Position numbers and translations under genes: made by a program
Notes under the pieces: generated by a model
What the model was told of the DNA's origin: nothing
What the model saw: the letters and a program-made list of their open reading frames with translations, nothing else
Databases searched by the model: none
In this document: positions 7,580 to 57,830 of the stretch, piece after piece
How positions within the stretch are numbered: position 1 is the first letter of the stretch
Layout: every line of letters starts with the position of its first letter
Source of the DNA: Candidatus Nanoarchaeia archaeon
GTDB taxonomy: Archaea > Nanobdellota > Nanobdellia > SCGC-AAA011-G17 > JACPNG01
Direction: 5' to 3'
DNA length: 64,000 nt
Assembly (NCBI GenBank): GCA_028713535.1
Contig: JAQTOC010000003.1
Span: 7,556-71,555, forward strand

Positions 7580-8401
7580 TTAGTCCAGTGGACTTTTTAT
7601 CTTTTTTATTTGCTCTTGCGAGACATGAGTATAAATTTGTGTGGTGCTTAACTGCGAATGCCCCAGCAGTTCCTGTATCAACCTTATATCTGTCCCGTTC
7701 TCCAGTAAATGTGTAGCAAAGCTGTGCCTAAGCGTGTGGGGTGTAACCCTTTTCTTTATTCCTGCCTTCATGGCAGTGTTCTGGATTATTTTTTGTATGT
7801 TTCTCGTCGTCAAAATATCCCTCCCTTGCCCAGGGAATATCCAAACATTTTCGCTCGGCAGCGTTTGAAGATATCTTTCAAGCTCTTTCAGGACTTTCCC
7901 TCCAACAATTGTCATTCTGTCCTTGCTTCCTTTTCCAGCTTTGACTCTTATTGTTTTTTCCTTGAAATTAATTTCATCGGTTTTTAACCTGACAAGCTCA
8001 GAGACTCGTAACCCCGTGCTGTAAAGCAGCTCGATTATTAATTTGGTTTTTTGGGATTTTGCATTTTTAATCAATAAAAATATTTCATCTCTGCTTAAAA
8101 CTTCCGGGTTTGACTTTGGGATCCTAGGAGTCTTCAAATTAATTATGTTTTTCTTTAAGATTTCATCATAAAAAAACTTCAGTGCACTTTTTTTCAGAGA
8201 AACACTTCTTGGTTTTAGCTTTAAGTCAGATATAATATAGCTCATATAACTTTTAATATCAGATTCAGTCACTTTATCCGGCTCTTTTTTTATATAATCC
8301 AGGAACAGCTTATTGTGCCGCATATAAGAGCTGAGCGTCTCTTTGGAAAAACCCCTTAGCTTTAATTCAACCTCTAGATTTTTTAACAATTTTTCACCCA
8401 A
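7580..8401 (-). CDS. xerA: tyrosine site-specific recombinase, XerA/XerC/XerD family
   Basis: C-terminal catalytic box 'HTLRHSFATHLLENGTDIRLIQELLGHSQLSTTQIYTHV' (R..HxxR..Y), 273 aa, typical of archaeal XerA. Confidence 0.85.
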   Translation of the reverse strand: MGEKLLKNLEVELKLRGFSKETLSSYMRHNKLFLDYIKKEPDKVTESDIKSYMSYIISDLKLKPRSVSLKKSALKFFYDEILKKNIINLKTPRIPKSNPEVLSRDEIFLLIKNAKSQKTKLIIELLYSTGLRVSELVRLKTDEINFKEKTIRVKAGKGSKDRMTIVGGKVLKELERYLQTLPSENVWIFPGQGRDILTTRNIQKIIQNTAMKAGIKKRVTPHTLRHSFATHLLENGTDIRLIQELLGHSQLSTTQIYTHVSQEQIKKIKSPLD

Positions 8402-18687: not shown

Positions 18688-19065
18688 ATGAAAAACAGCC
18701 TAAAAAGGCTAGGCTTTTTTGGAGCAACATTCCTAGTTTCATTGATATCTATCTTTCTTGTTTTTTTGATTGTGGATACGATTAAGGATCGTTTAATTGT
18801 TTCCCTTATCTTTGCAGTTATTTTAACATTGATAATTATAATCTTCAGGGCCCCATTCCAGAAAGAGATTGGGGATTCCCAGGAAGGTACAAGGTACACA
18901 ATGCTGTGCCATGACTGCGGATGGGAGTGGATGTCAAATATAACTCCCGGAGTTAAGCCGACAAGATGTCCTAACTGCAGGTCTGATACCCTCGAAACCC
19001 TCGGCTGGAGAAAAGTCAAAATCCAGAAGAAAAAAGAGCAGGACTTGAGGTCATTCTTTAAATAA
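18688..19065 (+). CDS. membrane-anchored zinc-ribbon protein
   Basis: 2 N-terminal TM + 'CHDCGWEW...CPNCRS'. Confidence 0.45.
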   Translation: MKNSLKRLGFFGATFLVSLISIFLVFLIVDTIKDRLIVSLIFAVILTLIIIIFRAPFQKEIGDSQEGTRYTMLCHDCGWEWMSNITPGVKPTRCPNCRSDTLETLGWRKVKIQKKKEQDLRSFFK

Positions 19066-19101
19066 AAACAATTATAAAGCCATTTATTTAAAAAATTCTG
19101 T

Positions 19102-19176
19102 GGGCCTTTAGCGCAGTCTGGCTAGCGCAGCTGACTCTTAATCAGTTGGTCGGGGGTTCAAATCCCTCAAGGCCCG
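19102..19176 (+). tRNA. tRNA-Lys (anticodon CUU)
   Basis: Cloverleaf folded by hand: acceptor gggcctt/aaggccc, D gcgc/gcgc, anticodon arm gctga-CTCTTAA-tcagt, T-loop ttcaaat; no encoded CCA. Confidence 0.8.
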
Positions 19177-19216
19177 TTCCATAACCTTTAAATATTCTTT
19201 TTAGATACTCATAGTA

Positions 19217-19852
19217 ATGAACAAAAAGAGGCTGGTTATTTTTATTAGTCTGATACTTATGGTGTTGCTTTTCTTCCTAAGCGAGACCATCTTGGGGTAT
19301 GTTATTTATCCAAATTCAACCCCCTCAGTTTCAGGGGGTTCAGACATCCTTGATATTTATTATCAATACGCAAACTGGATTGATTTTATATTGTTCCTTA
19401 TGATATTCCTTGGGATTGGCCAGGTCACAATAGGGAAGAGATTTGAGGGCTCAGGCAAGATTATCTTTGTTGCAGTAGGCATTGTGCTTGCTCTAGCTTT
19501 GTTAATCTGGGAAAATCGTACAGGATTTTATCTTCTTGAAGAGTTTGGGGGCATAATTTTCTGGGTTTTGATAATACTCCTTATCATCTTTGTGATAAAA
19601 AAATTCTCAGGCTCTGTAGGTGGTCTTAGCGTTGGAATTCCGATTGTTTTGCTTGTTGCCTATTTCCTTCTGTACGGAAAGATATTGTGGATGGAATATA
19701 TCTTTGAGGGATTTGCAAACAGTTACCCGCTTAACACGATATTTTATTCTCCGGGAATTTATAATATATTTTTCTTTGTCCACTGGATATGTGTTTTTGT
19801 TTTAATCTGGATGATCATCAAGTATGTCAAAGAGAAAAAAGGTTCATCATGA
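19217..19852 (+). CDS. polytopic membrane protein (211 aa)
   Basis: ~6 hydrophobic helices; first gene of a translationally coupled operon. Confidence 0.5.
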   Translation: MNKKRLVIFISLILMVLLFFLSETILGYVIYPNSTPSVSGGSDILDIYYQYANWIDFILFLMIFLGIGQVTIGKRFEGSGKIIFVAVGIVLALALLIWENRTGFYLLEEFGGIIFWVLIILLIIFVIKKFSGSVGGLSVGIPIVLLVAYFLLYGKILWMEYIFEGFANSYPLNTIFYSPGIYNIFFFVHWICVFVLIWMIIKYVKEKKGSS

Positions 19853-19962
19853 AAAAAGGGTTTTCCTCAACAAAAGTTATAGTTGGATTAATACTTTTTA
19901 TTATATTTGCAATCATTGTTGCTTTGGCAATGAGTGGCATGCTTAAGACGCTGTTAAAATGA
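19849..19962 (+). CDS. small (37 aa) membrane peptide with prepilin-like N-terminus
   Basis: MKKG-FSSTKVIVGLILFIIFAIIVALAM; ATG overlaps upstream stop and its stop overlaps the next ATG (ATGA); not in ORF track (<60 aa). Confidence 0.35.
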   Translation: MKKGFSSTKVIVGLILFIIFAIIVALAMSGMLKTLLK

Positions 19963-21077
19963 ACAAGAAAGGAATGGAGATGGAAACAGTAGTGAAGATG
20001 ATTCTTACAATTGTTTCTTTTATTATTATCTTTTTTGTTATGAGTATCTGGTTGATTCCCACAATGAATGATTCGTACAAGGATGCGGTTTGTAAGTTTA
20101 GCCTGTATATGGCTTCCTATTCCAGAGGAGGAATTCCTTTTATTGGAGTCAAGACTGGTTCTGTATTCAAGTTAAACTGCCCGATGCATGAAAGAAAAAT
20201 AAGTTCTCCAGATAAAGAAGAAACCATGAAAACAATTGCAAAAGAATCTGCAAGTTGCTGGAGTAAATTAGGAGAGGGCAACGTGGATTTTTATTCAGAC
20301 ATTAACTGGCCATGGGACCAAGGAACTGTCTTTTGTGTTATCTGTTCTAAACTAGAGCCAAAATCAACAAGTTATGATCAGTTCATCAACAATGATGATT
20401 ACATTAAGTTCCTTGCTGAAACTACATATCCAAAAGAAAAACTTACTTACTTAGAATACCTTGCTGGAGGCAAGGATAAGACTCTTCCTTCTTTTGTTGA
20501 GATGGAGTCTTCCTCTATTGCAGTTACAAAAGAAAATCCTTTGTATATTATATTTGCTGTGGATAAAAGTGAAGGCGTTGGTGAAAAATTTGCAAGAGCA
20601 TTTGGAATAGAAAATGAAGATGTTATTTCTTTGGCTGCAGCCCTAAAAGTTAAAGGGATGGCATCGTCTTCTGGAACCAAGGTTGGAGCAACAGCAGATA
20701 CAGCAGGAGACCTAGGTAAGTTAAGGGAGAAAGCAGATGGTCTTCTTACAAGTATAAGAAAGATGCCTGAAGGTTCTGCAGAGCGTATTGCTGCAAGAGC
20801 AGAGATGGATAATCTCTTGGCAAGGATTGGAACATTGATGAAAACAAATCCTGCAGAAGCAGGAATTGGTACAAAAGCCATAAAAGGCATATCAAAATTT
20901 ACAATAAAACCAGTTGCAAAAGTAGGATCCAAAGCACTAAAAGCCCTTCCTTATGTTGGAACCGCATTTATTATTATCGATGTATCCTCTTCAATCTTCG
21001 TATCGAAAAACTTTAATGCTAAGATACTCTACTTAAATTCAGAGCAGGCAGCAGGAGTATGTGATGAACTTATCTAA
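19959..21077 (+). CDS. membrane-anchored/secreted hypothetical protein (372 aa)
   Basis: MNKKG + hydrophobic anchor, Cys pairs, Ala/Gly/Lys-rich C-terminal half. Confidence 0.5.
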   Translation: MNKKGMEMETVVKMILTIVSFIIIFFVMSIWLIPTMNDSYKDAVCKFSLYMASYSRGGIPFIGVKTGSVFKLNCPMHERKISSPDKEETMKTIAKESASCWSKLGEGNVDFYSDINWPWDQGTVFCVICSKLEPKSTSYDQFINNDDYIKFLAETTYPKEKLTYLEYLAGGKDKTLPSFVEMESSSIAVTKENPLYIIFAVDKSEGVGEKFARAFGIENEDVISLAAALKVKGMASSSGTKVGATADTAGDLGKLREKADGLLTSIRKMPEGSAERIAARAEMDNLLARIGTLMKTNPAEAGIGTKAIKGISKFTIKPVAKVGSKALKALPYVGTAFIIIDVSSSIFVSKNFNAKILYLNSEQAAGVCDELI

Positions 21078-21213
21078 GAAAGGATCTTTGCACTGGGACA
21101 AGTTAGGAAATATCTTAATAGTCCTTTTTCTTTTAGTTGTCCTGATAATTATTTACTTAATTTTCAAGGACAAAATGGTTGAGGTGATTGAAAAATTCAA
21201 AGAATTTGTCTGA
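21064..21213 (+). CDS. small (50 aa) single-TM peptide
   Basis: MNLSKKGSLHWDKLGNILIVLFLLVVLIIIYLIF...; overlaps the upstream gene's stop; below ORF-track cutoff. Confidence 0.25.
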   Translation: MNLSKKGSLHWDKLGNILIVLFLLVVLIIIYLIFKDKMVEVIEKFKEFV

Positions 21214-21345
21214 ACAAAAAAGGGGTTGCAGTAAGGGAGATAATTACTATTATCCTTGTTTTGGTTGTAGTGATACTTATGATCCTATTTGCAAAAAACA
21301 TAATGCATTTAAAAGACCTAATCTTAAAAATATTTAAACTTTAAA

Positions 21346-22965
21346 ATGAAATACAATAGAAGAGGGGAAAGCACGTCACAAACCACAATAATATGGTGGA
21401 TTATTGGGTTAGTTGTTTTAGTCTTGATAATAGTTGCATTCCTGTTCTTTTGGTCAAGCTCCAAGAGAAAAACAGGCTCAATACAGGAACAGATTGAGGG
21501 TGTTGACTTAAACCTTGGGGACTTTTTCCAGGATGTAAGTGATCTAACGCAAGGAAAAGACTTAAAGTCTGTAGCTCTTGATTTAAGCATAAAATGCAGT
21601 GAAAGTTTTTCTGAAACAGAAAATAAGGAGCTGCTGAAAACGTTTGAAATAGGTTATAAGGATGCAAAAGAAAGAAAGCTCCCTGAAATTGAGGAAGGGT
21701 TCAAAACAAAAACAATGGAATGTAATCTTATTCTCAGGGATTATGATGAAGCAAAGAAATATGGTTATGATCTTGACAAGGTTTGTGATGGCAGCTGGAA
21801 CTCAGAACTAATAAACCAAATTGATATTATCACAAAGAAAACACCAATCCTTACTGAGGCTCAGCTTGAAAAAGCAAAAACAGATCTTAAAAATATTTGT
21901 GACCTCGAGGATAAGGACCTTAATAAGGATGTAAAGGCAAGAATCGAAGCTGCGATAAATGAGCTGGATGCAATGAAGCTTACATTGTTCAAATTAAATG
22001 ACCAGGACGAGACTGTAAAAGAATTTTCAAAAAAATTCAATGGATTAGTCCAGAAAACCATAGCTAAAGATTATACAGGAGCATTGGCAGATACAGGAGA
22101 TTTAATCAATAAAGTTAATGATCTTAAATACAAGAATATAGCAGAAAACAAGTATATTAAAACAAAGATTAAAACGATTTTGTACTTAATAAAATCAAGA
22201 TTGGTAATATACTCTGGCGGAAACTGCAATGATATCCCTACAGTTACAAACTACAAGGAGTTTGTAGGAACTTTATTCTCAGAAACGTCATTTAGCACTT
22301 ACTTTGATACAGGTCAAAAAGATTTTGAGGGATTTAAGGGAGTTATTGATTCTGCACCAAGCGCAGGAAGTTTAGACAGCACAGTCTACCCAGATGTCCA
22401 GCTTGCTTTTGACAAGGCAACCTGCCAGAAAAACAAGGGAAGCTTGGCTACAGCAGTAAAAATTTATGAAGACCTGCTTAAAAATTCAGACCTAAACGAA
22501 AACTCAAACATATACCCTGCAATTGTGATGGTGTTTGATGACTACTGCAACAATGCTAACGAAGGAAAAGCGCGTTCTACTGTAATGAACTGCGAAGACA
22601 GAAGTTTTGTCTCAGGCCAGAAAGGATTGTCTCACTGTGTGTTTATTGATGATTATGATGATTCAAATCTACATATAGCTGGCGTAACCCTTGACTTTGG
22701 GGCTAATGAAGGCTCATGTGTTTCTTGTGCAAGCGTTTTAAGAAGTTCCAGAAACTGCAAGGCCTATGAGCCAACAAACAAGGTCTGGTTAAGAGGGCAA
22801 AAAAGCATAGTGGATTTATATGCCTCTTTTGGTGATGATCACGAGGAAGGGTTTGGATCAAACTGGGACAGCACATGTGAAGATGATCCATGCAACTTCA
22901 ATAATGGAAATTGTAATCCTGTAGATGAATCTAATGTTTATGATGACAAGTGTCTTTCATCTTAA
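21346..22965 (+). CDS. secreted hypothetical protein with Cys-rich C-terminal region (539 aa)
   Basis: N-terminal 'RRG' + hydrophobic anchor; ~20 Cys concentrated in last 200 aa. Confidence 0.55.
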   Translation: MKYNRRGESTSQTTIIWWIIGLVVLVLIIVAFLFFWSSSKRKTGSIQEQIEGVDLNLGDFFQDVSDLTQGKDLKSVALDLSIKCSESFSETENKELLKTFEIGYKDAKERKLPEIEEGFKTKTMECNLILRDYDEAKKYGYDLDKVCDGSWNSELINQIDIITKKTPILTEAQLEKAKTDLKNICDLEDKDLNKDVKARIEAAINELDAMKLTLFKLNDQDETVKEFSKKFNGLVQKTIAKDYTGALADTGDLINKVNDLKYKNIAENKYIKTKIKTILYLIKSRLVIYSGGNCNDIPTVTNYKEFVGTLFSETSFSTYFDTGQKDFEGFKGVIDSAPSAGSLDSTVYPDVQLAFDKATCQKNKGSLATAVKIYEDLLKNSDLNENSNIYPAIVMVFDDYCNNANEGKARSTVMNCEDRSFVSGQKGLSHCVFIDDYDDSNLHIAGVTLDFGANEGSCVSCASVLRSSRNCKAYEPTNKVWLRGQKSIVDLYASFGDDHEEGFGSNWDSTCEDDPCNFNNGNCNPVDESNVYDDKCLSS

Positions 22966-23009: not shown

Positions 23010-23309
23010 TTAGCCGAATAAGGCTCCAAGTCCTGCTGCTGCCTCTTCAGCTTTTTTCTCTTGATCTTCTTCTTTGTGTTCTTCTTTCTTCTCTGCATGG
23101 CTACTTGCTACCGGACCAGCACTTGCTACTGGAATTGCAGCTTCTTCAATTGCCTTGTCAATGTCAACACCATCAAGAGCAGCCACTAATGCTTTAATCT
23201 GACTACCATCTAAACTTAGTCCCACTGCATCAGCTACTTTCTTTACGTTGCCTTCGTTAATTTCTTTTCCTGCTTTGTGCAACAGCATTGCGATATAGAC
23301 TAGCTCCAT
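23010..23309 (-). CDS. rpl12: 50S ribosomal stalk protein P1 (L12)
   Basis: '[19 protein letters not shown]' archaeal P1 N-terminus, Ala/Glu-rich hinge, C-terminal 'GLGALFG'. Confidence 0.85.
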
Positions 23310-23327
23310 TTTAAACCTCCATCATGA

Positions 23328-24230
23328 TTATCGTTGGATTTCTCCGCCTGCCTCTCCCCACATAATTTTTTTGGTCAGGTCCTCTACCTCTTTTACCTTT
23401 TCTTCCTCACTAACTTCTTGAGTATTATTTTCTGTCTTGGTTTCAATGTTTAATTTTCCATCTACAGCTTTAGCTTCTATTTCAGCTTTCTTGATCATTA
23501 GCTCAACAGACTCCTTGCTGTAAATTCCAGCATATACTGCCAAATTAATAGACCACCTGTAAATGTTCTTGATGTCATTGATGACTTTTGCTTCATCGAT
23601 TCCAAGCACGTCTCTTTCATACATTACTCCGTTTTCATAAGCAAATATTAAGTTAATTCCAACTTCCATTGGTTCTATCTTTAATTTTGTCAAAACATCA
23701 GCAACTTTTGGTTTTATTATATCTCCGGCTTTGACAAGCAGCTTGTCATCCATGATAGAGACTTTTCCTTCTTCTACTCCTGTTTTTATTCCAAGCTGTC
23801 CTAGCTCTCCTATGATTGGGCCAGGAGCAAAAGGAGTTTTTCCTTTTTTTATGTAAATATCATTTGGAGCAGTCTGCCCAGCCTTTGCTGGTGCTGAGGA
23901 TTTTTCTTTTTGTAATTGTTTGTATAGCTTGAATGGATTTTCCTTGCTGAACACAACAGCAGGCATTCCGTTTACTTTTCCTTTTAATGTTTCAGTATCT
24001 TTTATTTTGTCTTTCAATTGGTCTAATGCAATCTTAATTAATCTTTTTTTGCCAACTTTAACAATTGCTTTCCCTGTAAGCTGTTTTTTCATTCTCTGTA
24101 ATTGTAAGGCTGGTAGGTTAGTGAGGTCTGCTACTCCGAAGACAGGATACTGGCTGATTAACCTCTTCATGTCTTCTACAGCGTCCTTTTTCCTTTGTGA
24201 AATTTTCTTACTCATTTTTTCCAATGACAA
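23328..24230 (-). CDS. rpl10: 50S ribosomal protein L10 (P0)
   Basis: 300 aa, archaeal P0 layout with acidic C-tail ending in the stalk consensus; sits in the L1-L10-L12 operon. Confidence 0.88.
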   Translation of the reverse strand: MSLEKMSKKISQRKKDAVEDMKRLISQYPVFGVADLTNLPALQLQRMKKQLTGKAIVKVGKKRLIKIALDQLKDKIKDTETLKGKVNGMPAVVFSKENPFKLYKQLQKEKSSAPAKAGQTAPNDIYIKKGKTPFAPGPIIGELGQLGIKTGVEEGKVSIMDDKLLVKAGDIIKPKVADVLTKLKIEPMEVGINLIFAYENGVMYERDVLGIDEAKVINDIKNIYRWSINLAVYAGIYSKESVELMIKKAEIEAKAVDGKLNIETKTENNTQEVSEEEKVKEVEDLTKKIMWGEAGGEIQR

Positions 24231-24858
24231 CTGGTTTTCCCATTGTTGTTTTGATCATCATGTTTTTTAAGTTCTGTTGTTCCTGTGGCAAATGATGTAT
24301 CACATAATTGTAAATGACCATTACGTTTTCAGCCACATCATCATCTTTTGAACTTTCCTTGCCGATAGGCACCTTAACAGACAAGTCCTTGTTTGTGAAT
24401 ATTCTTACTGTGTTTTGTAATTTTTCCTTTGTTTCTTTTAGGTTTGCAGTTGGAGGAATAACCTGGCCACCTTTTGGGCTTGGCATTTTTCCCCTCATCC
24501 CCAGTATTTTACCAAACTTCTTAGCAATGTCAACCATTATGTTTGCCTGAGCAATGAAAATATCATATTTTTTTCCTAGTTTTTTTACAGCCTTGTCATC
24601 ATAGTTTTTGAAATCATCTTTTGCTAGGAATCCATCAAGGTCCTTGGCCTGGGTAGTCATGTCCTTGTCAATTAAACCAAAAACCGTTCTTTTTGTGCCA
24701 ATCTTGTGTGGCAAGGTTATGAAGTAATCAACTTTCTGGTTAGTGTCCTTTAAGTTGATGCCTCTTAAATTAAGAATTAAATCAAAGGTTTGATCAAATT
24801 TCTTTTTGGGTTGTTCTCTTACCTTCTTGATTGCGTTTAATACTTCTTGTTTATCCAT
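24208..24858 (-). CDS. rpl1: 50S ribosomal protein L1
   Basis: 216 aa, L1 fold motifs 'FDQTFDLILNLRGINLKD', 'VIGKNE'; operon position. Confidence 0.88.
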   Translation of the reverse strand: MDKQEVLNAIKKVREQPKKKFDQTFDLILNLRGINLKDTNQKVDYFITLPHKIGTKRTVFGLIDKDMTTQAKDLDGFLAKDDFKNYDDKAVKKLGKKYDIFIAQANIMVDIAKKFGKILGMRGKMPSPKGGQVIPPTANLKETKEKLQNTVRIFTNKDLSVKVPIGKESSKDDDVAENVMVIYNYVIHHLPQEQQNLKNMMIKTTMGKPVVIGKNE

Positions 24859-37388: not shown

Positions 37389-38459
37389 ATGAAAAAAGGG
37401 GTTATCTCGCAGAGTTTTATATATATCTTTGCTGCAATAATCATGATCCTGATTTTAATCCTTGGTTTTTCAATATTTTCAAAATCCAAAAAATATGCAG
37501 AAGACGTTGATATACAAAGCTTTGTTCAAACATTAAACTCAAAAATAACTAAGATTAATGGCCTTGAAGAAGGGTCTGAATCAGTTTTTTCGTATGCTTT
37601 GCCCTCTAGCATTAATAAAATTTGTTTTGCAACAAATGCAAAGAGTTCAGATGCAGATTTAATATCTGTTTATAATCCTGAAAAAAATCTGTATATGTTT
37701 CCTGGCAATGCCTATTCTTTGAATGAAATTTATTTAGAAAATCCTATTTGTGTTTCCGGAAATAATCTAAACCTAAAACTGCTTAAACTGAAACAGGGAG
37801 TTACTATAACCTCTGAACAAGTCTCTCAGAAATGTAATACTCTCTTGTTTAACAAGGAAGATAATCTGGATATTCTGTTTATTTCAGACTCCTATCAAAA
37901 TATTAATGAATTTGTTGAAGATTCAAAAGAATATGTTAATTCTCTTCTTTCCAAAGAGCCATTAAAATCTAAAAAACAACTGCTTAATTTTTATTCCCTT
38001 AATCAATTCCCAGACCTTGGCTGCACAAAAGATTCCCTCTTGATTTGTGATACATTGTTAGTGCAAAAAGCAGCTTTAGACTGCCCTCATGACATTATTG
38101 TTGTTTTGTCTGAATCCGGCATGTTTTCCGGATTAAGGTCAACAAGTCTTGGAAATGTTATCTCAATAGCTACTGGAGACAATAATCTTGTTTTAAGCCA
38201 CGAACTTGGTCATGCTTTGGGTTTGTCAGATGAATATACAATGCCTGGATTCAAAAGCAGCTTAGAAGATTCTCCAAACTGCGATGTATCTCCCTGTGAA
38301 AAATGGGATAAGAACGGATGTTTTGAAGGATGTTCAAGTTCAGCTTATAACAGGCCATCAAAAGATTCTATCATGAAAAGCTATGGCCTTTTTTCAGTAA
38401 ACGAATTCAATGAACCTTCAAAGGAAGCAATGAGCAAAAAACTGGAGGTTTATGAATGA
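37389..38459 (+). CDS. secreted/anchored putative zinc metallopeptidase
   Basis: MKKG + hydrophobic anchor; 'HELGHALGLSDEY' HExxHxxGxxD motif. Confidence 0.5.
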   Translation: MKKGVISQSFIYIFAAIIMILILILGFSIFSKSKKYAEDVDIQSFVQTLNSKITKINGLEEGSESVFSYALPSSINKICFATNAKSSDADLISVYNPEKNLYMFPGNAYSLNEIYLENPICVSGNNLNLKLLKLKQGVTITSEQVSQKCNTLLFNKEDNLDILFISDSYQNINEFVEDSKEYVNSLLSKEPLKSKKQLLNFYSLNQFPDLGCTKDSLLICDTLLVQKAALDCPHDIIVVLSESGMFSGLRSTSLGNVISIATGDNNLVLSHELGHALGLSDEYTMPGFKSSLEDSPNCDVSPCEKWDKNGCFEGCSSSAYNRPSKDSIMKSYGLFSVNEFNEPSKEAMSKKLEVYE

Positions 38460-49529: not shown

Positions 49530-52500
49530 TTATAATTTAATGCTTAACTTTTCAGAATATTCTTTTCCGTCTATTTTTACTTTAATCGAGAATGTGTACC
49601 ATCCGCCTGTTTCAAATCTATCTAAATTAATGACTAACTGATTATTGTTTTTTATTTCAACATCAACCTTAAACATGTTTGCCGTAGCTTCAGCAGACTC
49701 AACATCTGTGTTGAGGTCAATTGTTAATTCCTTTCCATTAGAAGAATATTTTTTAATTAGTTTTTCATTGCATTTAGTATTCTCACAGCCAAACACACAT
49801 TCCTGGCTTGTTTTTAATTCATTGCTTTCGCATTTTATGATGCTTTTTTTATCATCGCTGCATTTAAGTCCTCCTTCCTTTAAGCCACTGCATCCATCTT
49901 CTTTTGCTTCCTCAGTTTTTTCAGCAGCAACCTCGCTTTTTTTCTCAAAGACATCGCCATGATCCCCTTCACTCCTGTAATCTTCTTTTCCTTTTCCAGC
50001 TTCAAGATAAATGAATCCGGTCTGGTAATATATTTCTGCTCTAAGCTCACTGTTCTGAACAGAATCCAATAATGCCTGCAATTCTTTTACGCTTTTTGTG
50101 TTTTTAATCTCGCTTAACTTAGTCTCTTTCTCTTCATCAGTCAGGGCAGTTATTCCCTTGTTCCTTAAATTTTCTACCTTTTTCTCTTCAAGATAGGAAG
50201 ATACATTTTCATAATTGCTAAGTGAGTCAAGACTAAAGCTTCTTGTGTCTAGCCAGCAGTCTCCAAGCGCAATCCCGTTGCTGTCTTTTCCGCAGCTTCC
50301 AGCTCTTCTCCAATAATCGTTCTCAGAATTTCCATCTGGATCATTAACAGAACAAATTCTCCTTATGCTGTCGGTGCTTGATCCAACTCCAGTTATGGTG
50401 TCCAGACTTTCTTCAATCTTTGATTTTTCTTCAGGAACACACTCTTCTTCATTTGTAATTTCTTTTGTTGCTTCTTCAGCAACAGCGTCGTCCTGCAGTT
50501 TATTTAATGCATAATCTGTTGTTACCCTTCCAAATCCGCATTCAGTTACCTCATTTATTTCAATGCACACCTCTTCAAAGCCTTCCCCTGCCACAGTATC
50601 AACATTCTTTGTGACATAGCCTCCATATTCTATCTGGCCTTTTGATTCGCTTGTGCTTCCTTCATCCCCAAATGTAACATAATGCCTTCTTCCAGTGCTG
50701 CTGTCTCTTAAATAGACTCTGTAGCTTAACTGTGTTGGTGCATTTGCTTCCTGTGTTGTTCCTGCATATATGTGGAAGAACACATTGTATTCATTTGCTC
50801 CAAATTTCTCACTGTATGTTTTTGAGCTTAATGTTGCTATGTATTGTGGTGGATCTCTTGGATTTACCAGTTTTGTTATAAACTCTCCAAGATTTGGTAT
50901 TGATCCAGTAACAACACCCTTGCATAACTCCATTTTTATCTGGGTTAATTTTGTTGATTTGTAAGATTGATCTACAATTGTTCCATACTCGCTTGTGAAA
51001 AATTCAACACTTTTCAATGCGGTTTCATAGCTGCTTGAGAAGTCTAGGTATTCTCCCCCGCCATCTGTGCTACTGCTGCTAATCATATTTCCATTGAAGA
51101 AATTGCTGATAAATTGGGTTGCTCCTTCTGCTTCTCTCCAGAAAACATCACAAATGTAGATGCTTTGTATTTTGTCGCATAAACCTACACTCTTTCCGTC
51201 TTCTTTTTGTGTTGTCAAGCAATCTTTTCCTGATTGGAATATAGATCTTATGTTCTTTAACCCAGCTAATATTCCTGTTGCACAAACAGGGAGTATGTCT
51301 CCAGAACCTTGTGGCAATACAATAGATCCGATAATGCCGGATCTTACTACATCCTTGACATACCAGTTGCCGCCTGCATTAAATCTTGAGACAGGGCATA
51401 CGATTGGATCGCATACATTGAATAACATTTTGCAGTCAGAGACACTCATCGAATCTGTGCAGTGGCCTATTGCTTTGTTTAGTTCTTTGTTTGCAGCATT
51501 TGTTTCGCAGTTAAACCATTTTCCGTCTTTGCTTTTTATTCTTTGTCCTTGTGTGCAGGTCTTTAATGAGTTTACATATGTCTGATACTTTAATAATTTG
51601 GAGGGTTCTTTTTCCTTTAGGAAACTGCTGCTCTCTAAACTGATGTCATCACCAGTGCATAATTTTCCGTCAGGGCCAACATTGTATGAACTGATTTCTC
51701 CTGCGCTTCCGTCAGCAAGTTGTTTTGTGACTTTTAAGTATACTCCTTTCTCATAAGGAACGCAGTAGGGTTTTCCGTCAGAGTAGAATTCTGCCGCAGC
51801 ATTCTTGTCATAATCTTTTCTTTCCCCTTTGTTGTCAGTTTCTTTTAGTACTAAATAACAGCCATTACTTGATGTGTATAATGAAGAAGCGCCAACAATC
51901 TTATTTAAATTCCCGCTGACATCCACACGATTAAGATCATTTATTGTTTGTACAGTTTTTCCTTCGTTGTCTACAACAAACCCAACCCCCTTTCCATTTT
52001 CAATTACAACCTCTGATATCGAGCCAGTTATTTCTTCGCATCCAACAGGTTTTTTATCTGTATTTGCCTTCCATTCTGACTGTCTTTTCTTGAAAGTCTC
52101 TGAACTTTGTGATTCAAGGCTGCTGTAAACAGTGTCGAATATTTTCTTTTTGTTCTCGTCGCTCTTTATGTCCTCTCCGAATAGGCTTTTAACCTCTGAA
52201 TATATCTCATTCTTTTTCTGCACGCTTTTTATTAAAGTATCCTTTTGTTTTTTTATTGTTTCAAAATATGCCTTTTCTTTTCCGCTGGTTCCATCTGGTT
52301 TATTATTGAGTATTGAGTTTAAGAAGAGATATTCTTTAACTTCATCGCTGTCAACCGTTAGTTCCTTTCCATTTTCATCAATTTTTGCTTCTTTTGCAAG
52401 ATCGCTATAAGCTTGTGTAGAATAAATGTTCCCATCTTTTAATGCATCATTGAAATCCTCTATTTTCTCATCTACCTCATCAATAATATTCTCTGCAAAC

Positions 52501-55481
52501 GCTCCTGTTTCAGTCAAGCACTTATCGTAGCTTTCATAGTATTTTCCGACCTTGCTTACAGACTCCAGATTTATGTTCATGATGCTGTTAGTCTGACAGA
52601 ACTCTTTTATTCCCATAACATTATCGTAGCCATTCATTACAACACTTCTTGCATCAGCTTTGTTCCCCAGCAAGAAGTTCTTGGCTGTTATGAACATGAA
52701 TGTTGCACCGCAACCAATAGTCCACCCCTTTACTATGTCTTCTGTTTTGTTAATAATTCCATTTAAGCTGTCTATAACAGAGTCAAGATTGTCTATATGG
52801 GTATCTAATTCCTCTGTTGTTAAATTAAATAATTTAATTCCCTTGTCAATTGGTATGTTTACATTGAACTCACTTGTGCTGTACACATTTGCTCTCCCAG
52901 GGATTATGGAAATCTGGGCTGCCTTGATTGCTTTAACTTCTTTAAGCTCAACTTCAATCTCCTTGCCAGAACTGTCCTTAATTTTTTCTTCTTCGTTTAT
53001 TTTTAATGTTTTTGAATCATCAGCTTTTGCTGATGGAAAATGATATCCGTTTTTTAATTGTTCAGAATTTTTGTTGTAGTTGCTGTTTCCAAGGAGGGCG
53101 TTTTCTAGCTGGTTTCTCAATTCAATTATTTTTTCGACATAAGTTTCATCTGCTGCTTGTTTTTCGCCGTCACAGGACATTCCATTGTATAATCTCAGTG
53201 CTCTTTCCCAACCCTTGTAATTTTTCCACGTTTCAATATAACTTGTGCAGTATGTGTTGTCCTTTAATCTGTCAACCATTGAGTTGTAGCTTGTTGCATC
53301 TTTGGTTTTTTCATATTTTAATTTTAGGAACTTAACTCCTGCTTTGATGTTTTCCTCAGCATCAAACCTTATATCCTGTTCCTTTGTTTTTTCAGATTTG
53401 CTTAGCTCAGCCAACTGTTCCAGATATTTTTTGTTATCTATCTTATATGCACAGGTTGATTTTTGTCCTTCAAGCTCCTTGTAGATATTTTCATCTTTTA
53501 TCCCTGCCTCATTTGCTGCCCCAGGCATTAACTGCATCAAACCCACTGCGCCGCAATAACCCTCGTTTGTTTTTGATATTGCTTTTGTATCAAATCCGCT
53601 TTCAATAGCAATCAGTGCTTTTACCAGTAATGGATCAACATCATACTCCTTGGAATATTTTAGGATTAAACTGTCATAATCATTTTTTATTGTTCTCCCG
53701 CCTATTTGTGTTGCACTTATTGCAATATCACTTTCTGTCAAAGCAGTTGGGTTTTTGATGTAATCCCCTGTTGTAATAATGATATTCTTGTCATTTATCT
53801 CAACAACCTTGTAGTCTGTTCCCTTTAATTTGGCTGATATCCCATAACTGTCTACTTGGTTGTCAACACTTACTTTTGCAGAAGCTCCAACCTGTTTTTT
53901 TATTGTTTTTAGCTCGATAATTGCTTCTTCTCCGTCAATATCTATGTTTTCTGAGGATGAGACCGTTGTTCCAATTGCATCCTTGAGATATTCTCCGTAC
54001 ATTGGAAGCAAGGCCGGATTTTTTATGTTTCCTAGCTCATCTAAAATCCTGCTCTTGAAAGAGTTGACATCATCCAATTCATTTGCATTTGTTGCTTTTT
54101 TTATTAAGTCCCTGTAAGCTAAGATAATCTGTTCTGTATATCTGTCCCAATCGTCTGCATTAGATATGACATACTCTCTTGCCCTGTTGAAGTTTGCGAT
54201 GGCTTCGCAATCCAAATCAAATGTTAAATCACTTTCAGGGTCTGGATTGCTTTTTGATCCTGAACATGGATTTACATTGCTGTAAGTTTGTTCATTTTTG
54301 TTTATTATTAAATTAATGGTCTTTTCTTCTTTTTTGTTGGTTAGTTTAACCTCTCCAGATTCATCTTCATCTTTTATTTCTTCAACAAACCAGTCTGTCC
54401 CAGATATGTAATTATTTTCAAATGCTTCAATTATGTTTATCTGATCTTCTTTGTATATCTCAAAAATTGCGCTTTTGCCCAACGAGTTAAGTATGCTGTC
54501 AAGCCTAACTCTTATCGTATCTGTTGCAGAGCTGCTGAACAATGAACTAAGTCCGCCCAAAGACATTGCAGATGTAGTCTCGCCAACCTTTAATGTTTGG
54601 AGTCCGCCAACAGAAGTTAATGTATTGTCATAAACCTGGATTGTTGCAGAATCATCCTCTATATTGTCTAGTCTTACATAATAAGCTCCATCTAAGAAAG
54701 AATCTTGGTAAGTTGAATCAATTCCTTCTGCAAAAGAAGTTGCTCCCTGATCTGTTCGTCTGCTTAATTTTTCTGTTAACGAAGTCCAGATATTTCGCAG
54801 CCCCTCAGTAACTGTTCTGGATTCCCTTGACGCATCTCCCGCGAACTCATCTTTGCTCTTCTGGTATATCAATTTTGTTAGTTGTCCATAGTTTAAGGTT
54901 CTGGCAGTACTAAACTCAATCCTTGCACTCAGGTTTAAGTCTATATTCTCTGGGATTTGATCTTCACTGCTGAATTTATTTAGCTCAATAATAACAATCC
55001 CAAGATTGTCTAAATCATTGTATTCCATTGTGCCAAGTGCACTTTTGATAGGAGACAATTGATCTAGATAAAAACTGGTTGGGGGGTAATAATCAATGCT
55101 TTTTATGTATGGATTGTATGATAGTGGGGTTATTATAATGTTATTTATTGTAGGAACTCCGATTGTGGGTTCGCCTGTGGAAATCTGTTCCCCCAGGAAA
55201 CTCCCGAGAGTGTTTCCACTAAGGTAAACAAACACAGGAACATTTCCTTTTGTTAATAAATTGCTGCTTAATACATTTGGTTCATAATCAGTAGGATAAA
55301 CATTTATTGCCTCTCCTAAATTATCATAGTAGCTTAATCCGCTTCTTATCGTGTCTGTGGAAGCATATCTTGAAATTGTCTGGCTGCTTCTTGAGCTTGG
55401 CTGGGTTCTTGTTGTGGCAGCAAATGATACATTGCTAAGTAAGAAAATTACTATCAATGTTATTGCAATAATCTTTTTCAT
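49530..55481 (-). CDS. giant secreted protein (1983 aa) with internal GH23/SLT lytic-transglycosylase-like domain and Cys-rich C-terminal region
   Basis: Sec signal 'SNVSFA|ATT'; SLT motifs 'ALIAIESGFD...GAVGLMQLMPGAA'; >40 Cys in C-terminal half; start overlaps upstream gene's stop (ATGA). Confidence 0.85.
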   Translation of the reverse strand: MKKIIAITLIVIFLLSNVSFAATTRTQPSSRSSQTISRYASTDTIRSGLSYYDNLGEAINVYPTDYEPNVLSSNLLTKGNVPVFVYLSGNTLGSFLGEQISTGEPTIGVPTINNIIITPLSYNPYIKSIDYYPPTSFYLDQLSPIKSALGTMEYNDLDNLGIVIIELNKFSSEDQIPENIDLNLSARIEFSTARTLNYGQLTKLIYQKSKDEFAGDASRESRTVTEGLRNIWTSLTEKLSRRTDQGATSFAEGIDSTYQDSFLDGAYYVRLDNIEDDSATIQVYDNTLTSVGGLQTLKVGETTSAMSLGGLSSLFSSSATDTIRVRLDSILNSLGKSAIFEIYKEDQINIIEAFENNYISGTDWFVEEIKDEDESGEVKLTNKKEEKTINLIINKNEQTYSNVNPCSGSKSNPDPESDLTFDLDCEAIANFNRAREYVISNADDWDRYTEQIILAYRDLIKKATNANELDDVNSFKSRILDELGNIKNPALLPMYGEYLKDAIGTTVSSSENIDIDGEEAIIELKTIKKQVGASAKVSVDNQVDSYGISAKLKGTDYKVVEINDKNIIITTGDYIKNPTALTESDIAISATQIGGRTIKNDYDSLILKYSKEYDVDPLLVKALIAIESGFDTKAISKTNEGYCGAVGLMQLMPGAANEAGIKDENIYKELEGQKSTCAYKIDNKKYLEQLAELSKSEKTKEQDIRFDAEENIKAGVKFLKLKYEKTKDATSYNSMVDRLKDNTYCTSYIETWKNYKGWERALRLYNGMSCDGEKQAADETYVEKIIELRNQLENALLGNSNYNKNSEQLKNGYHFPSAKADDSKTLKINEEEKIKDSSGKEIEVELKEVKAIKAAQISIIPGRANVYSTSEFNVNIPIDKGIKLFNLTTEELDTHIDNLDSVIDSLNGIINKTEDIVKGWTIGCGATFMFITAKNFLLGNKADARSVVMNGYDNVMGIKEFCQTNSIMNINLESVSKVGKYYESYDKCLTETGAFAENIIDEVDEKIEDFNDALKDGNIYSTQAYSDLAKEAKIDENGKELTVDSDEVKEYLFLNSILNNKPDGTSGKEKAYFETIKKQKDTLIKSVQKKNEIYSEVKSLFGEDIKSDENKKKIFDTVYSSLESQSSETFKKRQSEWKANTDKKPVGCEEITGSISEVVIENGKGVGFVVDNEGKTVQTINDLNRVDVSGNLNKIVGASSLYTSSNGCYLVLKETDNKGERKDYDKNAAAEFYSDGKPYCVPYEKGVYLKVTKQLADGSAGEISSYNVGPDGKLCTGDDISLESSSFLKEKEPSKLLKYQTYVNSLKTCTQGQRIKSKDGKWFNCETNAANKELNKAIGHCTDSMSVSDCKMLFNVCDPIVCPVSRFNAGGNWYVKDVVRSGIIGSIVLPQGSGDILPVCATGILAGLKNIRSIFQSGKDCLTTQKEDGKSVGLCDKIQSIYICDVFWREAEGATQFISNFFNGNMISSSSTDGGGEYLDFSSSYETALKSVEFFTSEYGTIVDQSYKSTKLTQIKMELCKGVVTGSIPNLGEFITKLVNPRDPPQYIATLSSKTYSEKFGANEYNVFFHIYAGTTQEANAPTQLSYRVYLRDSSTGRRHYVTFGDEGSTSESKGQIEYGGYVTKNVDTVAGEGFEEVCIEINEVTECGFGRVTTDYALNKLQDDAVAEEATKEITNEEECVPEEKSKIEESLDTITGVGSSTDSIRRICSVNDPDGNSENDYWRRAGSCGKDSNGIALGDCWLDTRSFSLDSLSNYENVSSYLEEKKVENLRNKGITALTDEEKETKLSEIKNTKSVKELQALLDSVQNSELRAEIYYQTGFIYLEAGKGKEDYRSEGDHGDVFEKKSEVAAEKTEEAKEDGCSGLKEGGLKCSDDKKSIIKCESNELKTSQECVFGCENTKCNEKLIKKYSSNGKELTIDLNTDVESAEATANMFKVDVEIKNNNQLVINLDRFETGGWYTFSIKVKIDGKEYSEKLSIKL

Positions 55482-57591: not shown

Positions 57592-57723
57592 TTAAAGCAC
57601 TTTAAAAGCTTTATTTTAGTCTAAAAGGCTAAAAAAGCCTTTGTTCTTGGTTTAAAATATTTTAAAACCTTTAATAAACTAAGAACATATAGACAGAACT
57701 AATATATAAATATTTTGAAAAGA

Positions 57724-57819: not shown

Positions 57820-57830
57820 CCTTTAAAAAA

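What the first reader, a model, noticed from the sequence alone, without database searches (positions are those of the whole stretch)
19217..22965. Translationally coupled operon of a membrane protein, two tiny TM peptides and two large secreted proteins
Five ORFs share overlapping stop/start codons. They are a 211-aa polytopic membrane protein, a 37-aa peptide (MKKG-FSSTKVIVGLILFII...), a 372-aa protein (MNKKG + anchor), a 50-aa peptide, and a 539-aa protein (RRG + anchor) with a Cys-rich C-terminal third. Several N-termini start with [KR][KR]G followed by a hydrophobic stretch, reminiscent of archaeal prepilin signals. The two peptides are below the ORF-track cutoff. This looks like a surface-structure or adhesion module.
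Basis: seen in the sequence. Interest (0 to 1): 0.6.

Follow-up and report, generated by a model that had tools for sequence, protein, structure and literature searches.

The report
Detached pilus-subunit operon of a DPANN archaeon
This six-gene operon in a tiny symbiotic (DPANN) archaeon most likely encodes the subunits and one membrane accessory protein of a type IV pilus-like surface filament, and one of its three mini-genes has no normal start codon and has been missed by every annotation.

Summary
The operon is real, but it has six genes, not five. The 132-nt "gap" (21214-21345) holds a third micro-ORF (ORF4b, ...NKKG|VAVREII...), conserved in all four relatives, with no ATG/GTG/TTG start.

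All three micro-ORFs are under purifying selection (pN 0.17-0.33, pS 0.47-0.88). A [KR][GA] site ahead of the hydrophobic helix is kept in five of the six gene families.

No protein matches a curated family, and close homologues occur only in a few Ca. Nanoarchaeia MAGs. The 6-TM ORF1 belongs to a wider family (510 hits).

In every distant locus with enough upstream sequence, the ORF1 homologue lies just downstream of a ~710-aa 8-9-TM protein. In at least seven loci a FlaI/TadA-type (T2SSE) ATPase precedes that protein. In most loci with enough downstream sequence, the homologues of ORF2, ORF3, ORF4, ORF4b and ORF5 follow in the same order. Some neighbouring pilin-like genes carry lysozyme or M23 domains.

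The finding is therefore the pilin/accessory half of a DPANN-type type IV filament cluster. Here it is detached from its ATPase and has its own leaderless promoter.

Cleavage, filament formation and the location of the ATPase and peptidase are untested.

This is a new variant of a known kind, of moderate interest.

The parts
19188..19195 (+). TATA box TTTAAATA. It lies 22 nt before the ORF1 ATG, which implies a leaderless operon mRNA.
   Evidence: The motif is identical and at the same distance from the ATG in the window, L004, L001 and L002. The spacing rule is established knowledge of archaeal promoters. The transcription start was not measured.
19217..19852 (+). ORF1. A 211-aa, 6-TM membrane protein from a widespread uncharacterised family that is linked to type IV filament loci.
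   Evidence: - No Pfam or NCBIfam hit.
- 510 family members at E<=1e-3. Y48, D56, F64 and E99 are invariant.
- The AF2 model is a helical bundle with pLDDT 78.6 and no PDB fold match.
- In distant loci the homologue sits next to the T2SSE ATPase and the ~710-aa membrane gene.
19849..19962 (+). ORF2. A 37-aa micro-protein, MKKG|FSSTKVIVGLILF..., and a candidate minimal pilin-like subunit.
   Evidence: - Its ATGA start overlaps the ORF1 stop.
- Conserved in L001, L002 and L004.
- pN 0.22-0.33 against pS 0.62-0.88.
- A positional counterpart is present in distant loci, but three of these lack the K-G leader.
19959..21077 (+). ORF3. A 372-aa protein, MNKKG|MEMETVV..., with an N-terminal helix and an extracellular domain holding 6 invariant Cys.
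   Evidence: - Homologues lie in the same position in L010, L012, L013, L015, L018 and L021 (phmmer E from 1e-27 to 2e-15).
- C45, C74, C100, C126, C129 and C368 are invariant.
- No Pfam or PDB relative.
- The AF2 model is unusable, pLDDT 42.
21064..21213 (+). ORF4. A 49-aa micro-protein, MNLSKKG|SLHWD..., with an acidic residue at +5. A GTG at 21061 is an alternative start.
   Evidence: - Conserved in all relatives.
- dN/dS 0.05-0.15.
- Homologues in L010, L013 and L018.
- Weak, sub-threshold Flp1_like hit, E=0.02.
21175..21200 (+). A 26-nt block, ATGGTTGAGGTGATTGAAAAATTCAA, invariant at the nucleotide level. It contains an 8-nt Shine-Dalgarno complement (GAGGTGAT, 21181-21188) and a conserved ATT at 21195.
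   Evidence: - Identical in four genomes.
- Seven consecutive synonymous sites are frozen, against a 33% background (Fisher p=0.003).
- The SD-to-ATT spacing is 6 nt. It resembles the P. abyssi aEF1A SD GGAGGUGAU (PMC6237735).
21195..21344 (+). ORF4b, a hidden third micro-protein, (IQRICL)NKKG|VAVREIITIILV.... The conserved part starts at 21213. The proposed start is ATT at 21195.
   Evidence: - The frame is open only from the TGA at 21189-21191 and has no ATG, GTG or TTG before the TM core.
- Conserved in L001, L002 and L004, with pN 0.18-0.22 against pS 0.47-0.64.
- Homologues in L010, L013, L015, L018 and L021 have ATG or TTG starts right before KKG.
- No gene caller called it in any of the four genomes.
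21346..22965 (+). ORF5. A 539-aa protein, MKYNRRG|ESTSQTTIIWWIIG..., with an N-terminal helix, a helical middle region and a Cys-rich C-terminal domain (16 Cys).
   Evidence: - 100% identical to NCBI PHT54_01465 of a Ca. Nanoarchaeia MAG. Orthologues in L001 and L002 are 45% and 32% identical.
- A positional counterpart with a weak match exists in L010 (E=2e-5).
- No Pfam or NCBIfam hit.

Best explanation
The region is a six-gene operon transcribed from its own archaeal promoter as a leaderless mRNA. I propose it encodes the subunit and accessory half of a DPANN-specific type IV filament (TFF, archaeal type IV pilus-like) system.

**Proposed mechanism**
- Five products have class III (prepilin-type) signal peptides: three 37-49-aa micro-proteins (ORF2, ORF4, ORF4b) and two large Cys-rich proteins (ORF3, ORF5).
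- Each has a short basic leader ending in [KR][GA], then a polar stretch of a few residues that often includes an acidic residue at +3 to +5, then a hydrophobic helix of about 20 residues.
- The proteins are inserted N-in.
- A PibD/FlaK-type peptidase trims them.
- A FlaI/TadA-type ATPase with its membrane partner polymerises them through their N-terminal helices.
- The micro-proteins would form or prime the fibre core.
- ORF3 and ORF5 would display disulfide-bonded extracellular domains, most plausibly for attachment to a host cell.
- ORF1, a 6-TM protein with invariant acidic residues at the outer membrane face, would be a conserved accessory of the machinery rather than the peptidase.

In this clade the ATPase and platform genes are not adjacent and would be encoded elsewhere in the genome.

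**Shown:** gene content, conservation, selection, motif conservation, and synteny with the ATPase in relatives.

**Inferred:** cleavage, polymerisation, adhesion, the role of ORF1, and AUU initiation of ORF4b.
For: 1. **Conservation.** The operon, all micro-ORFs included, is conserved in three other Nanoarchaeia genomes. Selection is purifying: pN 0.14-0.47 against pS 0.47-0.88.
2. **Signal motif.** K/R at -2 and G/A at -1 are conserved in all five families and in most distant homologues. D/E at +5 is conserved in ORF4, and E at +3 to +6 in ORF4b. These are the criteria given for archaeal class III signals in PMC4371748 and PMC3387779.
3. **ORF1 family context.** The family has 510 members.
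   - In all 10 metagenomic loci with enough upstream sequence, the homologue lies within about 1.1 kb downstream of a ~710-aa 8-9-TM protein.
   - That protein follows a T2SSE ATPase in 7 loci (Pfam PF00437 down to 3e-15). The best NCBIfam matches are FlaI (1e-35) and TadA (6e-35).
4. **Collinear downstream genes.** Homologues of ORF3 (E down to 1e-27), ORF4 (6e-10), ORF4b (4e-7) and ORF5 (2e-5) follow in the same order in those loci. ORF2 has only a positional counterpart, with no phmmer match at E<=0.01.
5. **Other class III proteins.** The same loci carry further class III-type proteins, including a lysozyme and an M23 peptidase.
6. **Clustering in the window.** Five of the ten [KR][KR]G + hydrophobic N-termini found in the 64-kb window lie in this operon.
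7. **Promoter.** A conserved TATA box sits 22 nt before the ORF1 ATG.
8. **Prior report.** DPANN T4P islands with unrecognisable pilins have been reported in general terms (PMC6393860).
Against: - **No machinery nearby.** No ATPase or platform gene was found in the window or in the fetched flanks of the orthologous loci (tblastn). Pfam scans of 36 window proteins gave no T2SSE or A24 hit. About 15 smaller ORFs were not scanned.
- **No curated match.** No curated pilin model is matched above threshold. The best are Flp1_like (E=0.02) and the prepilin N-terminal domain (E=0.023).
- **Atypical spacer.** The hydrophobic core starts 3-9 residues after the putative cleavage site, sometimes with charged residues in between. 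That is more than in textbook pilins.
- **Leaderless homologues.** ORF2-like peptides in L010, L012 and L013, and ORF4-like peptides in L015 and L021, start directly with ME... and have no K-G leader. This could mean they are not peptidase substrates.
- **Unidentified platform.** The ~710-aa protein has no detectable T2SSF/FlaJ similarity and no internal repeat.
- **No structural support.** The ORF3 model is unusable, and ORF1 has no fold match.
Confidence: 0.7

Rival explanations
1. The proteins belong to the type IV filament apparatus but are not filament subunits. In this view the micro-proteins and the two large proteins are uncleaved single-pass membrane proteins. Together with ORF1 they would form a membrane-embedded assembly, anchoring or alignment sub-complex, and the KKG motif would be only a positive-inside anchor signal.
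For: - Some distant homologues of ORF2 and ORF4 have no K-G leader at all.
- The polar spacer between G and the hydrophobic core is atypical.
- Mature products of 33-42 aa would be shorter than characterised archaeal pilins (my knowledge).
- No curated pilin model is matched.
- ORF1 and these genes travel together even when they are detached from the ATPase.
Against: - Position -1 is strictly G, with A as the only substitution, across five paralogous families and deep divergence.
- An acidic residue recurs at +3 to +5. A plain anchor would not need either feature.
- The homologues without a leader begin almost exactly at the predicted +1 residue, as expected if the leader is a removable unit.
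Confidence: 0.2
2. After detaching from the ATPase and platform genes, the module works on its own in this clade. It would be a cell-envelope or adhesion complex that no longer depends on any type IV filament machinery.
For: - No ATPase or platform gene lies within the window or within the 7-8 kb flanks fetched around the orthologous loci.
- The module has its own conserved promoter.
- Its position between tRNA-Lys and the rpl12-rpl10-rpl1 genes is stable.
- The closest ORF1 relatives (L005, L008) also lack the ATPase and have different neighbours.
Against: - Archaeal pilin genes are often unlinked from ATPase/TadC genes (PMC4858521), so separation is not evidence of independence.
- The class III-type motif is still under selection.
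Confidence: 0.07
3. This rival concerns only how ORF4b is expressed. ORF4b would not be an independent gene. It would be made as a fusion to ORF4 by a programmed -1 ribosomal slip on GAA-AAA-T (21190-21196), giving a two-TM protein of about 90 aa.
For: - ORF4b lies in the -1 frame of ORF4 and has no canonical start.
- The lysine tRNA can re-pair on A-AAA.
- The surrounding 26 nt are invariant and include an SD-like element.
Against: - There is no tandem slippery heptamer.
- The SD-like element is only 4 nt from the slip codon. That spacing favours +1 shifts, not -1 (knowledge of prfB and dnaX).
- No stable downstream RNA structure is predicted (z=-0.7).
- Distant homologues are separate genes with their own ATG or TTG.
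- The NKKG motif matches the N-termini of the sister genes.
Confidence: 0.1
4. The operon is cargo of an integrated virus or mobile element inserted at tRNA-Lys.
For: It lies immediately downstream of tRNA-Lys(CTT), and all its proteins are ORFans to curated databases.
Against: - There is no integrase, attachment repeat or capsid gene next to it.
- The same location and gene order occur in genomes whose proteins are only 32-75% identical.
- tblastn of ORF1 and ORF3 against 50,697 phage records found nothing.
- Base composition does not stand out.
Confidence: 0.02

Closest known systems
Archaeal type IV pilus/TFF loci with several class III-signal pilins, for example the Epd pilus of Methanococcus maripaludis ("system 1") and subsystem 4A loci reported in some DPANN/Nanoarchaeota (PMC4858521; bioRxiv 10.64898/2026.04.22.720090)
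   Same: - Several small pilin-like genes plus larger pilin-like surface proteins in one operon.
- K/R at -2 and G at -1, with an acidic residue near +5.
- In relatives, linkage to a FlaI/TadA-type ATPase followed by a polytopic membrane gene, with accessory genes downstream of it.
   Different: - No sequence match to any described pilin, platform or accessory family.
- No Q at +1 (the EppA signature).
- A single ~710-aa membrane partner that is not recognisable as FlaJ/TadC.
- An extra conserved 6-TM protein (ORF1).
- Predicted mature micro-proteins of only 33-42 aa.
- In this clade the block is separated from the ATPase.
Bacterial Flp/Tad pilins
   Same: They are very small prepilins whose mature part is little more than the hydrophobic helix. 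ORF4 has a weak Flp1_like hit (E=0.02).
   Different: - The hit is below threshold.
- The Flp G/xxxxEY motif (my knowledge) is absent.
- The obligatory basic residue at -2 is the archaeal signature.
- No TadB/C, CpaC or TadV genes are present.
[quoted passage not shown]
   Same: Large extracellular proteins (here ORF3 and ORF5) carry a pilin-type N-terminus. They may be mounted on a pilus-like scaffold encoded elsewhere in the genome.
   Different: There are no solute-binding domains or ABC transporter genes, and the extracellular domains are novel and Cys-rich.
"Dark matter" type IV pilus islands of DPANN genomes (Makarova et al. 2019, PMC6393860)
   Same: The same general claim was made there. 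DPANN loci with FlaI, TadC and many signal-peptide ORFans were predicted to encode divergent pilins.
   Different: - That description is generic.
- In the papers I read, I did not find the ORF1 family, the conserved order 6-TM / micro-peptide / Cys protein / two micro-peptides / large protein, the detached version next to rpl12, or the gene without a start codon.

Membership tests
Archaeal class III (prepilin-type) signal peptide proteins / type IV pilin-like proteins | A charged residue at -2 and G/A/S at -1 close to the N-terminus | tested here: met
   All five families (ORF2, 3, 4, 4b, 5) have [KR][KR]G in the window. Orthologues change only G to A. Criteria are from PMC4371748 and PMC3387779.
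Archaeal class III (prepilin-type) signal peptide proteins / type IV pilin-like proteins | The processing site precedes, rather than follows, a hydrophobic H-domain of about 20 residues | tested here: met
   A stretch of 20-25 hydrophobic residues follows the site in every case. The caveat is a 3-9-residue partly polar spacer, longer than in model pilins. FlaFind itself could not be run.
Archaeal class III (prepilin-type) signal peptide proteins / type IV pilin-like proteins | An acidic residue around +5 (frequent but optional in archaea) | tested here: met
   - ORF4 has D/E at +5 in 5 of 6 homologues that carry the site.
- ORF4b has E at +5 in the window clade and at +3 to +6 elsewhere.
- ORF3 has E at +4 in the window clade and L018, and is variable elsewhere.
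- ORF5 is variable.
Archaeal class III (prepilin-type) signal peptide proteins / type IV pilin-like proteins | A match to a curated pilin or archaellin model | tested here: not met
   Only sub-threshold hits were found: PF16982 Flp1_like E=0.02 (cut-off 33.5 bits, score 14.8) and NF007660 prepilin-type N-terminal domain E=0.023.
Archaeal class III (prepilin-type) signal peptide proteins / type IV pilin-like proteins | Genomic linkage to a TFF ATPase (T2SSE/FlaI family) and a platform protein | tested here: inconclusive
   - Not met in the window or in the fetched flanks of the close orthologous loci.
- Met for homologues in at least 7 distant loci.
- The rest of this genome could not be searched.
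Archaeal class III (prepilin-type) signal peptide proteins / type IV pilin-like proteins | Cleavage by a PibD/FlaK/EppA peptidase and incorporation into a filament | not testable with these tools
   This needs N-terminal proteomics, a cleavage assay or imaging.
Prepilin peptidase, Peptidase_A24 (considered for ORF1) | A sequence match to A24, and two catalytic Asp (one in GxGD) near the cytoplasmic face | tested here: not met
   - No Pfam or NCBIfam hit, even at E<=1.
- The family invariants are Y48, D56, F64 and E99, with no GxGD.
- By the positive-inside rule applied to the AF2 helices, D56 and E99 sit at the outer ends of TM2 and TM3 (inference).
Prepilin peptidase, Peptidase_A24 (considered for ORF1) | A fold like FlaK or PibD | tested here: not met
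T2SSF / FlaJ / TadC platform proteins (considered for the ~710-aa neighbour in distant loci) | A sequence match to T2SSF/FlaJ, and an internally duplicated architecture | tested here: not met
   - The best Pfam T2SSF hit is E=5.1, in one of five proteins.
- No NCBIfam hit.
- No PDB relative.
- hhalign of the two halves gives probability <1%.
- The platform role is inferred only from position, size and 8-9 TM segments.
T2SSE / FlaI-TadA secretion ATPases (the neighbour in distant loci) | A match to the T2SSE domain | tested here: met
   PF00437 hits 7 loci, best E=3.3e-15. NCBIfam gives FlaI at 1.3e-35 and TadA-family at 5.9e-35, both below the equivalog cut-offs. This shows superfamily membership, not orthology.

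The most novel reading that the evidence does not exclude
The most novel reading has four parts.

1. The three micro-proteins are the smallest type IV pilins known. Their mature forms would be 33-42 aa, essentially bare alpha-1 helices.
2. Together with a previously unrecognised core membrane component (the ORF1 family), they build a DPANN-specific filament.
3. That filament carries large Cys-rich adhesins and, in sister lineages, pilin-fused murein hydrolases (lysozyme, M23). It would be a pilus used to contact and breach host or prey cell walls.
4. One subunit gene (ORF4b) is translated from a conserved AUU codon behind a perfect Shine-Dalgarno sequence. AUU initiation would be exceptional for archaea.
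Probability: 0.2. Interest if true: 0.7.

Novelty: new variant of a known kind. Interest (0 to 1): 0.42.

Why it matters
DPANN archaea make up a large share of archaeal diversity and are thought to live attached to hosts, yet the molecules of attachment are almost unknown. This analysis contributes four things.

- **A conserved gene set.** It links a block of complete ORFans to a FlaI-type machinery: a 6-TM protein, three micro-proteins and two Cys-rich surface proteins. That gives concrete candidates for the attachment filament.
- **A new family.** It defines a membrane-protein family of about 500 members that tracks these loci.
- **A possible link to cell-wall attack.** Some of these loci encode pilin-like murein hydrolases. 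This may connect to the proposed predatory lifestyle of Woesearchaeota-like archaea (PMC9723730).
- **An annotation lesson.** A conserved, selected 44-49-aa gene is absent from all four public gene calls because it has no ATG, GTG or TTG start.

Tried and rejected
**Searches that found nothing useful**
- Pfam and NCBIfam on all six proteins gave nothing above threshold.
- Word-indexed homologue searches found only 2-4 relatives per protein.
- AF2 of ORF3 with 4 sequences gave pLDDT 42, which is unusable.
- PDB profile searches with the ORF3 family and the ~710-aa family returned only noise.
- A test for internal duplication in the ~710-aa protein was negative.
- Pfam on 26 long ORF1-family fusion proteins gave no informative domains.
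- Rfam on the whole window found tRNAs only.

**Ideas rejected**
- ORF1 as the prepilin peptidase. It has no A24 match or GxGD motif, its acidic invariants face outward, and it has no FlaK-like fold.
- A provirus at tRNA-Lys. There is no integrase nearby, synteny is conserved, and there are no phage matches.
- A -1 frameshift as the main route to ORF4b. It is judged less likely than AUU initiation (and the spacing argument).

**Limits**
- The GGTGAT motif is not enriched in the window, so the Shine-Dalgarno argument rests on cross-genome conservation alone.
- Attempts to read beyond the window edges on the 81-kb contig failed.
- The genome-contig scan found only the two known sister species.

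Full report
**1. What is in the sequence**

The window comes from a low-GC (about 35%) Candidatus Nanoarchaeia (DPANN) genome. ORF5 is 100% identical to NCBI protein PHT54_01465 of such a MAG.

On the + strand, downstream of tRNA-Lys(CTT) (19101-19177) and convergent with rpl12/rpl10/rpl1 (23010-24858), lie these ORFs:

| Gene | Coordinates | Size | N-terminus |
|---|---|---|---|
| ORF1 | 19217-19852 | 211 aa, six predicted TM helices | MNKKR... (no G/A site) |
| ORF2 | 19849-19962 | 37 aa | MKKG... |
| ORF3 | 19959-21077 | 372 aa | MNKKG... |
| ORF4 | 21064-21213 (alt. GTG at 21061) | 49 aa | MNLSKKG... |
| ORF5 | 21346-22965 | 539 aa | MKYNRRG... |

The fourth does not. There are 132 nt between the ORF4 stop and the ORF5 start.

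**2. A hidden sixth gene**

The gap is coding. The frame that opens after the TGA at 21189-21191 reads KIQRICLNKKGVAVREIITIILVLVVVILMILFAKNIMHLKDLILKIFKL and stops at 21344, 1 nt before the ORF5 ATG.

The same frame, with the same NKKG + helix + amphipathic tail, is present in all three related genomes (L001, L002, L004). In none of them does it have an ATG, GTG or TTG before the TM core, and no gene caller annotated it.

It is under purifying selection, with pN 0.18-0.22 against pS 0.47-0.64.

In distant relatives the homologous gene has an ordinary ATG or TTG directly before KKG, so the gene is real.

How it is translated in the window clade is unresolved:
- The codon at the ancestral start position is not conserved. 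It is CTG in the window, TTA in L004 and L002, and ATA in L001.
- An ATT at 21195 is conserved in all four genomes. It lies 6 nt downstream of GAGGTGAT, an 8-nt complement of the archaeal 16S 3' end. For comparison, the P. abyssi aEF1A Shine-Dalgarno sequence is GGAGGUGAU (PMC6237735).
- The 26 nt ATGGTTGAGGTGATTGAAAAATTCAA are invariant. Seven consecutive synonymous sites of ORF4 are frozen, against a 33% background (p=0.003).

I therefore favour AUU initiation. A -1 slip on GAA-AAA-T is possible but less likely:
- There is no tandem slippery site.
- The SD-like element is too close to the slip codon.
- No downstream RNA structure is predicted (z=-0.7).

GGTGAT is not generally enriched in the window, so this argument rests on cross-genome conservation only.

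**3. Are the micro-ORFs genes?**

Yes. ORF2, ORF4 and ORF4b are retained in genomes whose large proteins are only 32-75% identical. Their synonymous sites are near saturation (pS 0.47-0.88), while pN is 0.17-0.33. That is as constrained as, or more constrained than, ORF3 and ORF5.

**4. No known family**

- Pfam and NCBIfam give nothing above threshold for any of the six proteins. The only hints are sub-threshold N-terminal pilin-type hits: Flp1_like at E=0.02 and the prepilin N-terminal domain at E=0.023.
- Word-indexed searches of 5.8 billion proteins found 2-4 homologues each, all from Nanoarchaeia MAGs or metagenomes.
- The GTDB species scan found only two species.

**5. The decisive evidence: context in distant relatives**

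An exhaustive profile search with ORF1 found a much larger family: 510 proteins at E<=1e-3 and 94 at E<=1e-10. The core motif is conserved...Y.QY..W[IF]DF.IFL.IFLG.G...LL.WE..TGF..., with Y48, D56, F64 and E99 invariant.

Nineteen metagenomic loci carrying family members were fetched and their gene order analysed.

*Upstream.*
- In all ten loci with at least 2.5 kb of upstream sequence, the ORF1 homologue lies directly or within about 1.1 kb downstream of a ~710-aa protein with 8-9 TM segments.
- In at least seven loci that protein follows a 755-1050-aa T2SSE-family ATPase. Pfam PF00437 reaches 3e-15, and the best NCBIfam matches are FlaI (1e-35) and TadA (6e-35). Two of these ATPases carry inteins.

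*Downstream, in the same order as in the window.*
- In some loci a 64-68-aa two-TM protein comes first. It is absent from the window.
- A 34-42-aa peptide occupies the position of ORF2, with no sequence match at E<=0.01.
- A 277-394-aa protein is homologous to ORF3 (phmmer 1e-27 to 2e-15, with six invariant Cys).
- Two peptides of about 45 aa are homologous to ORF4 (6e-10) and ORF4b (4e-7).
- A larger class III-type protein is weakly similar to ORF5 (2e-5).
- Several more class III-type proteins follow. One has a Phage_lysozyme domain (L013:3472-4623) and one a Peptidase_M23 domain (L018:10468-11526).

ATPase, then polytopic membrane protein, then a string of class III-signal genes is the canonical layout of archaeal type IV filament loci (PMC4858521; bioRxiv 10.64898/2026.04.22.720090). 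The window's operon is the downstream half of this cluster.

**6. The signal-peptide test**

The published criteria for archaeal class III signals are (PMC4371748, PMC3387779):
- G/A/S at -1.
- A charged residue at -2.
- Optionally, an acidic residue at +5.

All five families meet the first three in the window clade, and the only substitution seen at -1 is G to A. ORF4 has D/E at +5 (SLHWD, EIHWD, EMHWE, SFHFD). ORF4b has E at +5 (VAVRE, IAVRE, LETSE) in the window clade.

Two cautions apply.
- The hydrophobic core begins 3-9 residues after the site.
- In some distant loci the ORF2-like and ORF4-like peptides start directly with ME... and have no K-G leader. These begin close to the predicted +1 residue, which fits a removable leader. 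It also fits the rival view that these peptides are not peptidase substrates.

**7. ORF1**

- An AF2 model built with 36 homologues is a helical bundle with pLDDT 78.6.
- Foldseek found no PDB match.
- ORF1 has no A24 or T2SSF signature.
- By the positive-inside rule, its invariant D56 and E99 sit at the outer ends of TM2 and TM3. That is the wrong side of the membrane for a prepilin peptidase.

I treat it as a conserved filament-associated accessory protein of unknown mechanism.

**8. What is missing here**

No T2SSE ATPase or ~710-aa partner is detectable in the window or in the 7-8 kb flanks fetched around the orthologous loci (tblastn). Pfam scans of 36 window proteins gave no T2SSE or A24 hit. 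About 15 smaller ORFs were not scanned. The rest of the genome could not be reached.

Unlinked pilin genes are common in archaea (PMC4858521), so this does not contradict the model. It does leave the key dependency untested.

The block has its own promoter. TTTAAATA lies 22 nt before the ORF1 ATG and is identical in four genomes, which implies a leaderless transcript.

**9. Rivals**

- (a) Uncleaved membrane subunits of the machinery rather than filament subunits: 0.2.
- (b) A module that has become independent of any type IV filament machinery: 0.07.
- (c) An ORF4-ORF4b frameshift fusion, which concerns that junction only: 0.1.
- (d) Mobile-element cargo at the tRNA: 0.02. Conserved synteny and the lack of phage matches argue against it.

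**10. Novelty and verdict**

Makarova et al. (PMC6393860) already noted that DPANN T4P islands contain unrecognisable pilins, so the kind is known.

The following were not described in the papers I could read:
- The specific conserved gene set.
- The ORF1 family as a marker of these loci.
- Predicted mature subunits of 33-42 aa.
- The detached arrangement next to the rpl12 operon.
- The conserved gene without a canonical start codon.
- Pilin-type murein hydrolases in sister loci.

The verdict is a new variant of a known kind. The observation needs correcting to six genes, three of them micro-ORFs.

Noticed in passing
window 49530-60290 (- strand): A second surface or secretion locus. It has a 1983-aa protein with SLT lytic-transglycosylase and glucosaminidase domains (49530-55481). 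Next is a 641-aa protein with a textbook class III N-terminus, MKRG|QVSLFVIIG (55478-57403). A HerA/DUF87-type ATPase follows (58521-60290). Large murein transglycosylases in Woesearchaeota have been linked to a predatory lifestyle (PMC9723730).
   Followed up: partly
L013:3472-4623 and L018:10468-11526; also L005:255-1001 and L008:56-592: In distant loci of the same filament system, proteins with class III-type N-termini carry Phage_lysozyme or Peptidase_M23 domains. In L005 and L008 an SLT protein lies just upstream of the ORF1 homologue. The filament may present cell-wall hydrolases.
   Followed up: partly
window 37389-38459 (+): A 356-aa protein with a MKKG|VISQSF... N-terminus and a Peptidase_M64 hit (E=1.5e-13). 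It is another candidate class III-signal surface enzyme outside the operon.
   Followed up: no
window 21285-21301 (+), inside ORF4b: A second block invariant at the nucleotide level, TTTGCAAAAAACATAAT, followed by ATTTAAA. It is conserved in four genomes. It might be an internal BRE/TATA-like promoter for ORF5, or it may only reflect the conserved peptide FAKNI.
   Followed up: no
window 18688-19065 (+); L001:2964-3347: A 125-aa protein with two TM helices and a C-terminal zinc ribbon, conserved just upstream of tRNA-Lys in L001. Zn-ribbon membrane proteins (arCOG07264) have been noted next to Sulfolobus bindosome loci (PMC4858521). The link here is untested.
   Followed up: no
L016:33-3194 and L009:12-2966: The T2SSE ATPases of two distant loci are interrupted by inteins (LAGLIDADG_3 and Intein_splicing hits).
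   Followed up: no
L010:6507-6701, L012:854-1045, L013:506-703, L018:6635-6841: A conserved 63-68-aa two-TM protein (...ILTILGGAWPL...IPS.G..YQ.III..G..A.LYG...) sits between the ORF1 and ORF2 homologues in distant loci. It is absent from the window clade.
   Followed up: no
window 20447-20932 (- strand): A 161-aa TTG ORF antisense to the Ala/Gly/Lys-rich middle of ORF3. It is probably a by-product of the biased composition of that segment. Its conservation was not examined.
   Followed up: no
window 7580-8401 (- strand): A 273-aa tyrosine recombinase (Phage_integrase, E=1e-45). It lies 11 kb from the operon, is not adjacent to the tRNA-Lys, and may be the chromosomal Xer.
   Followed up: no
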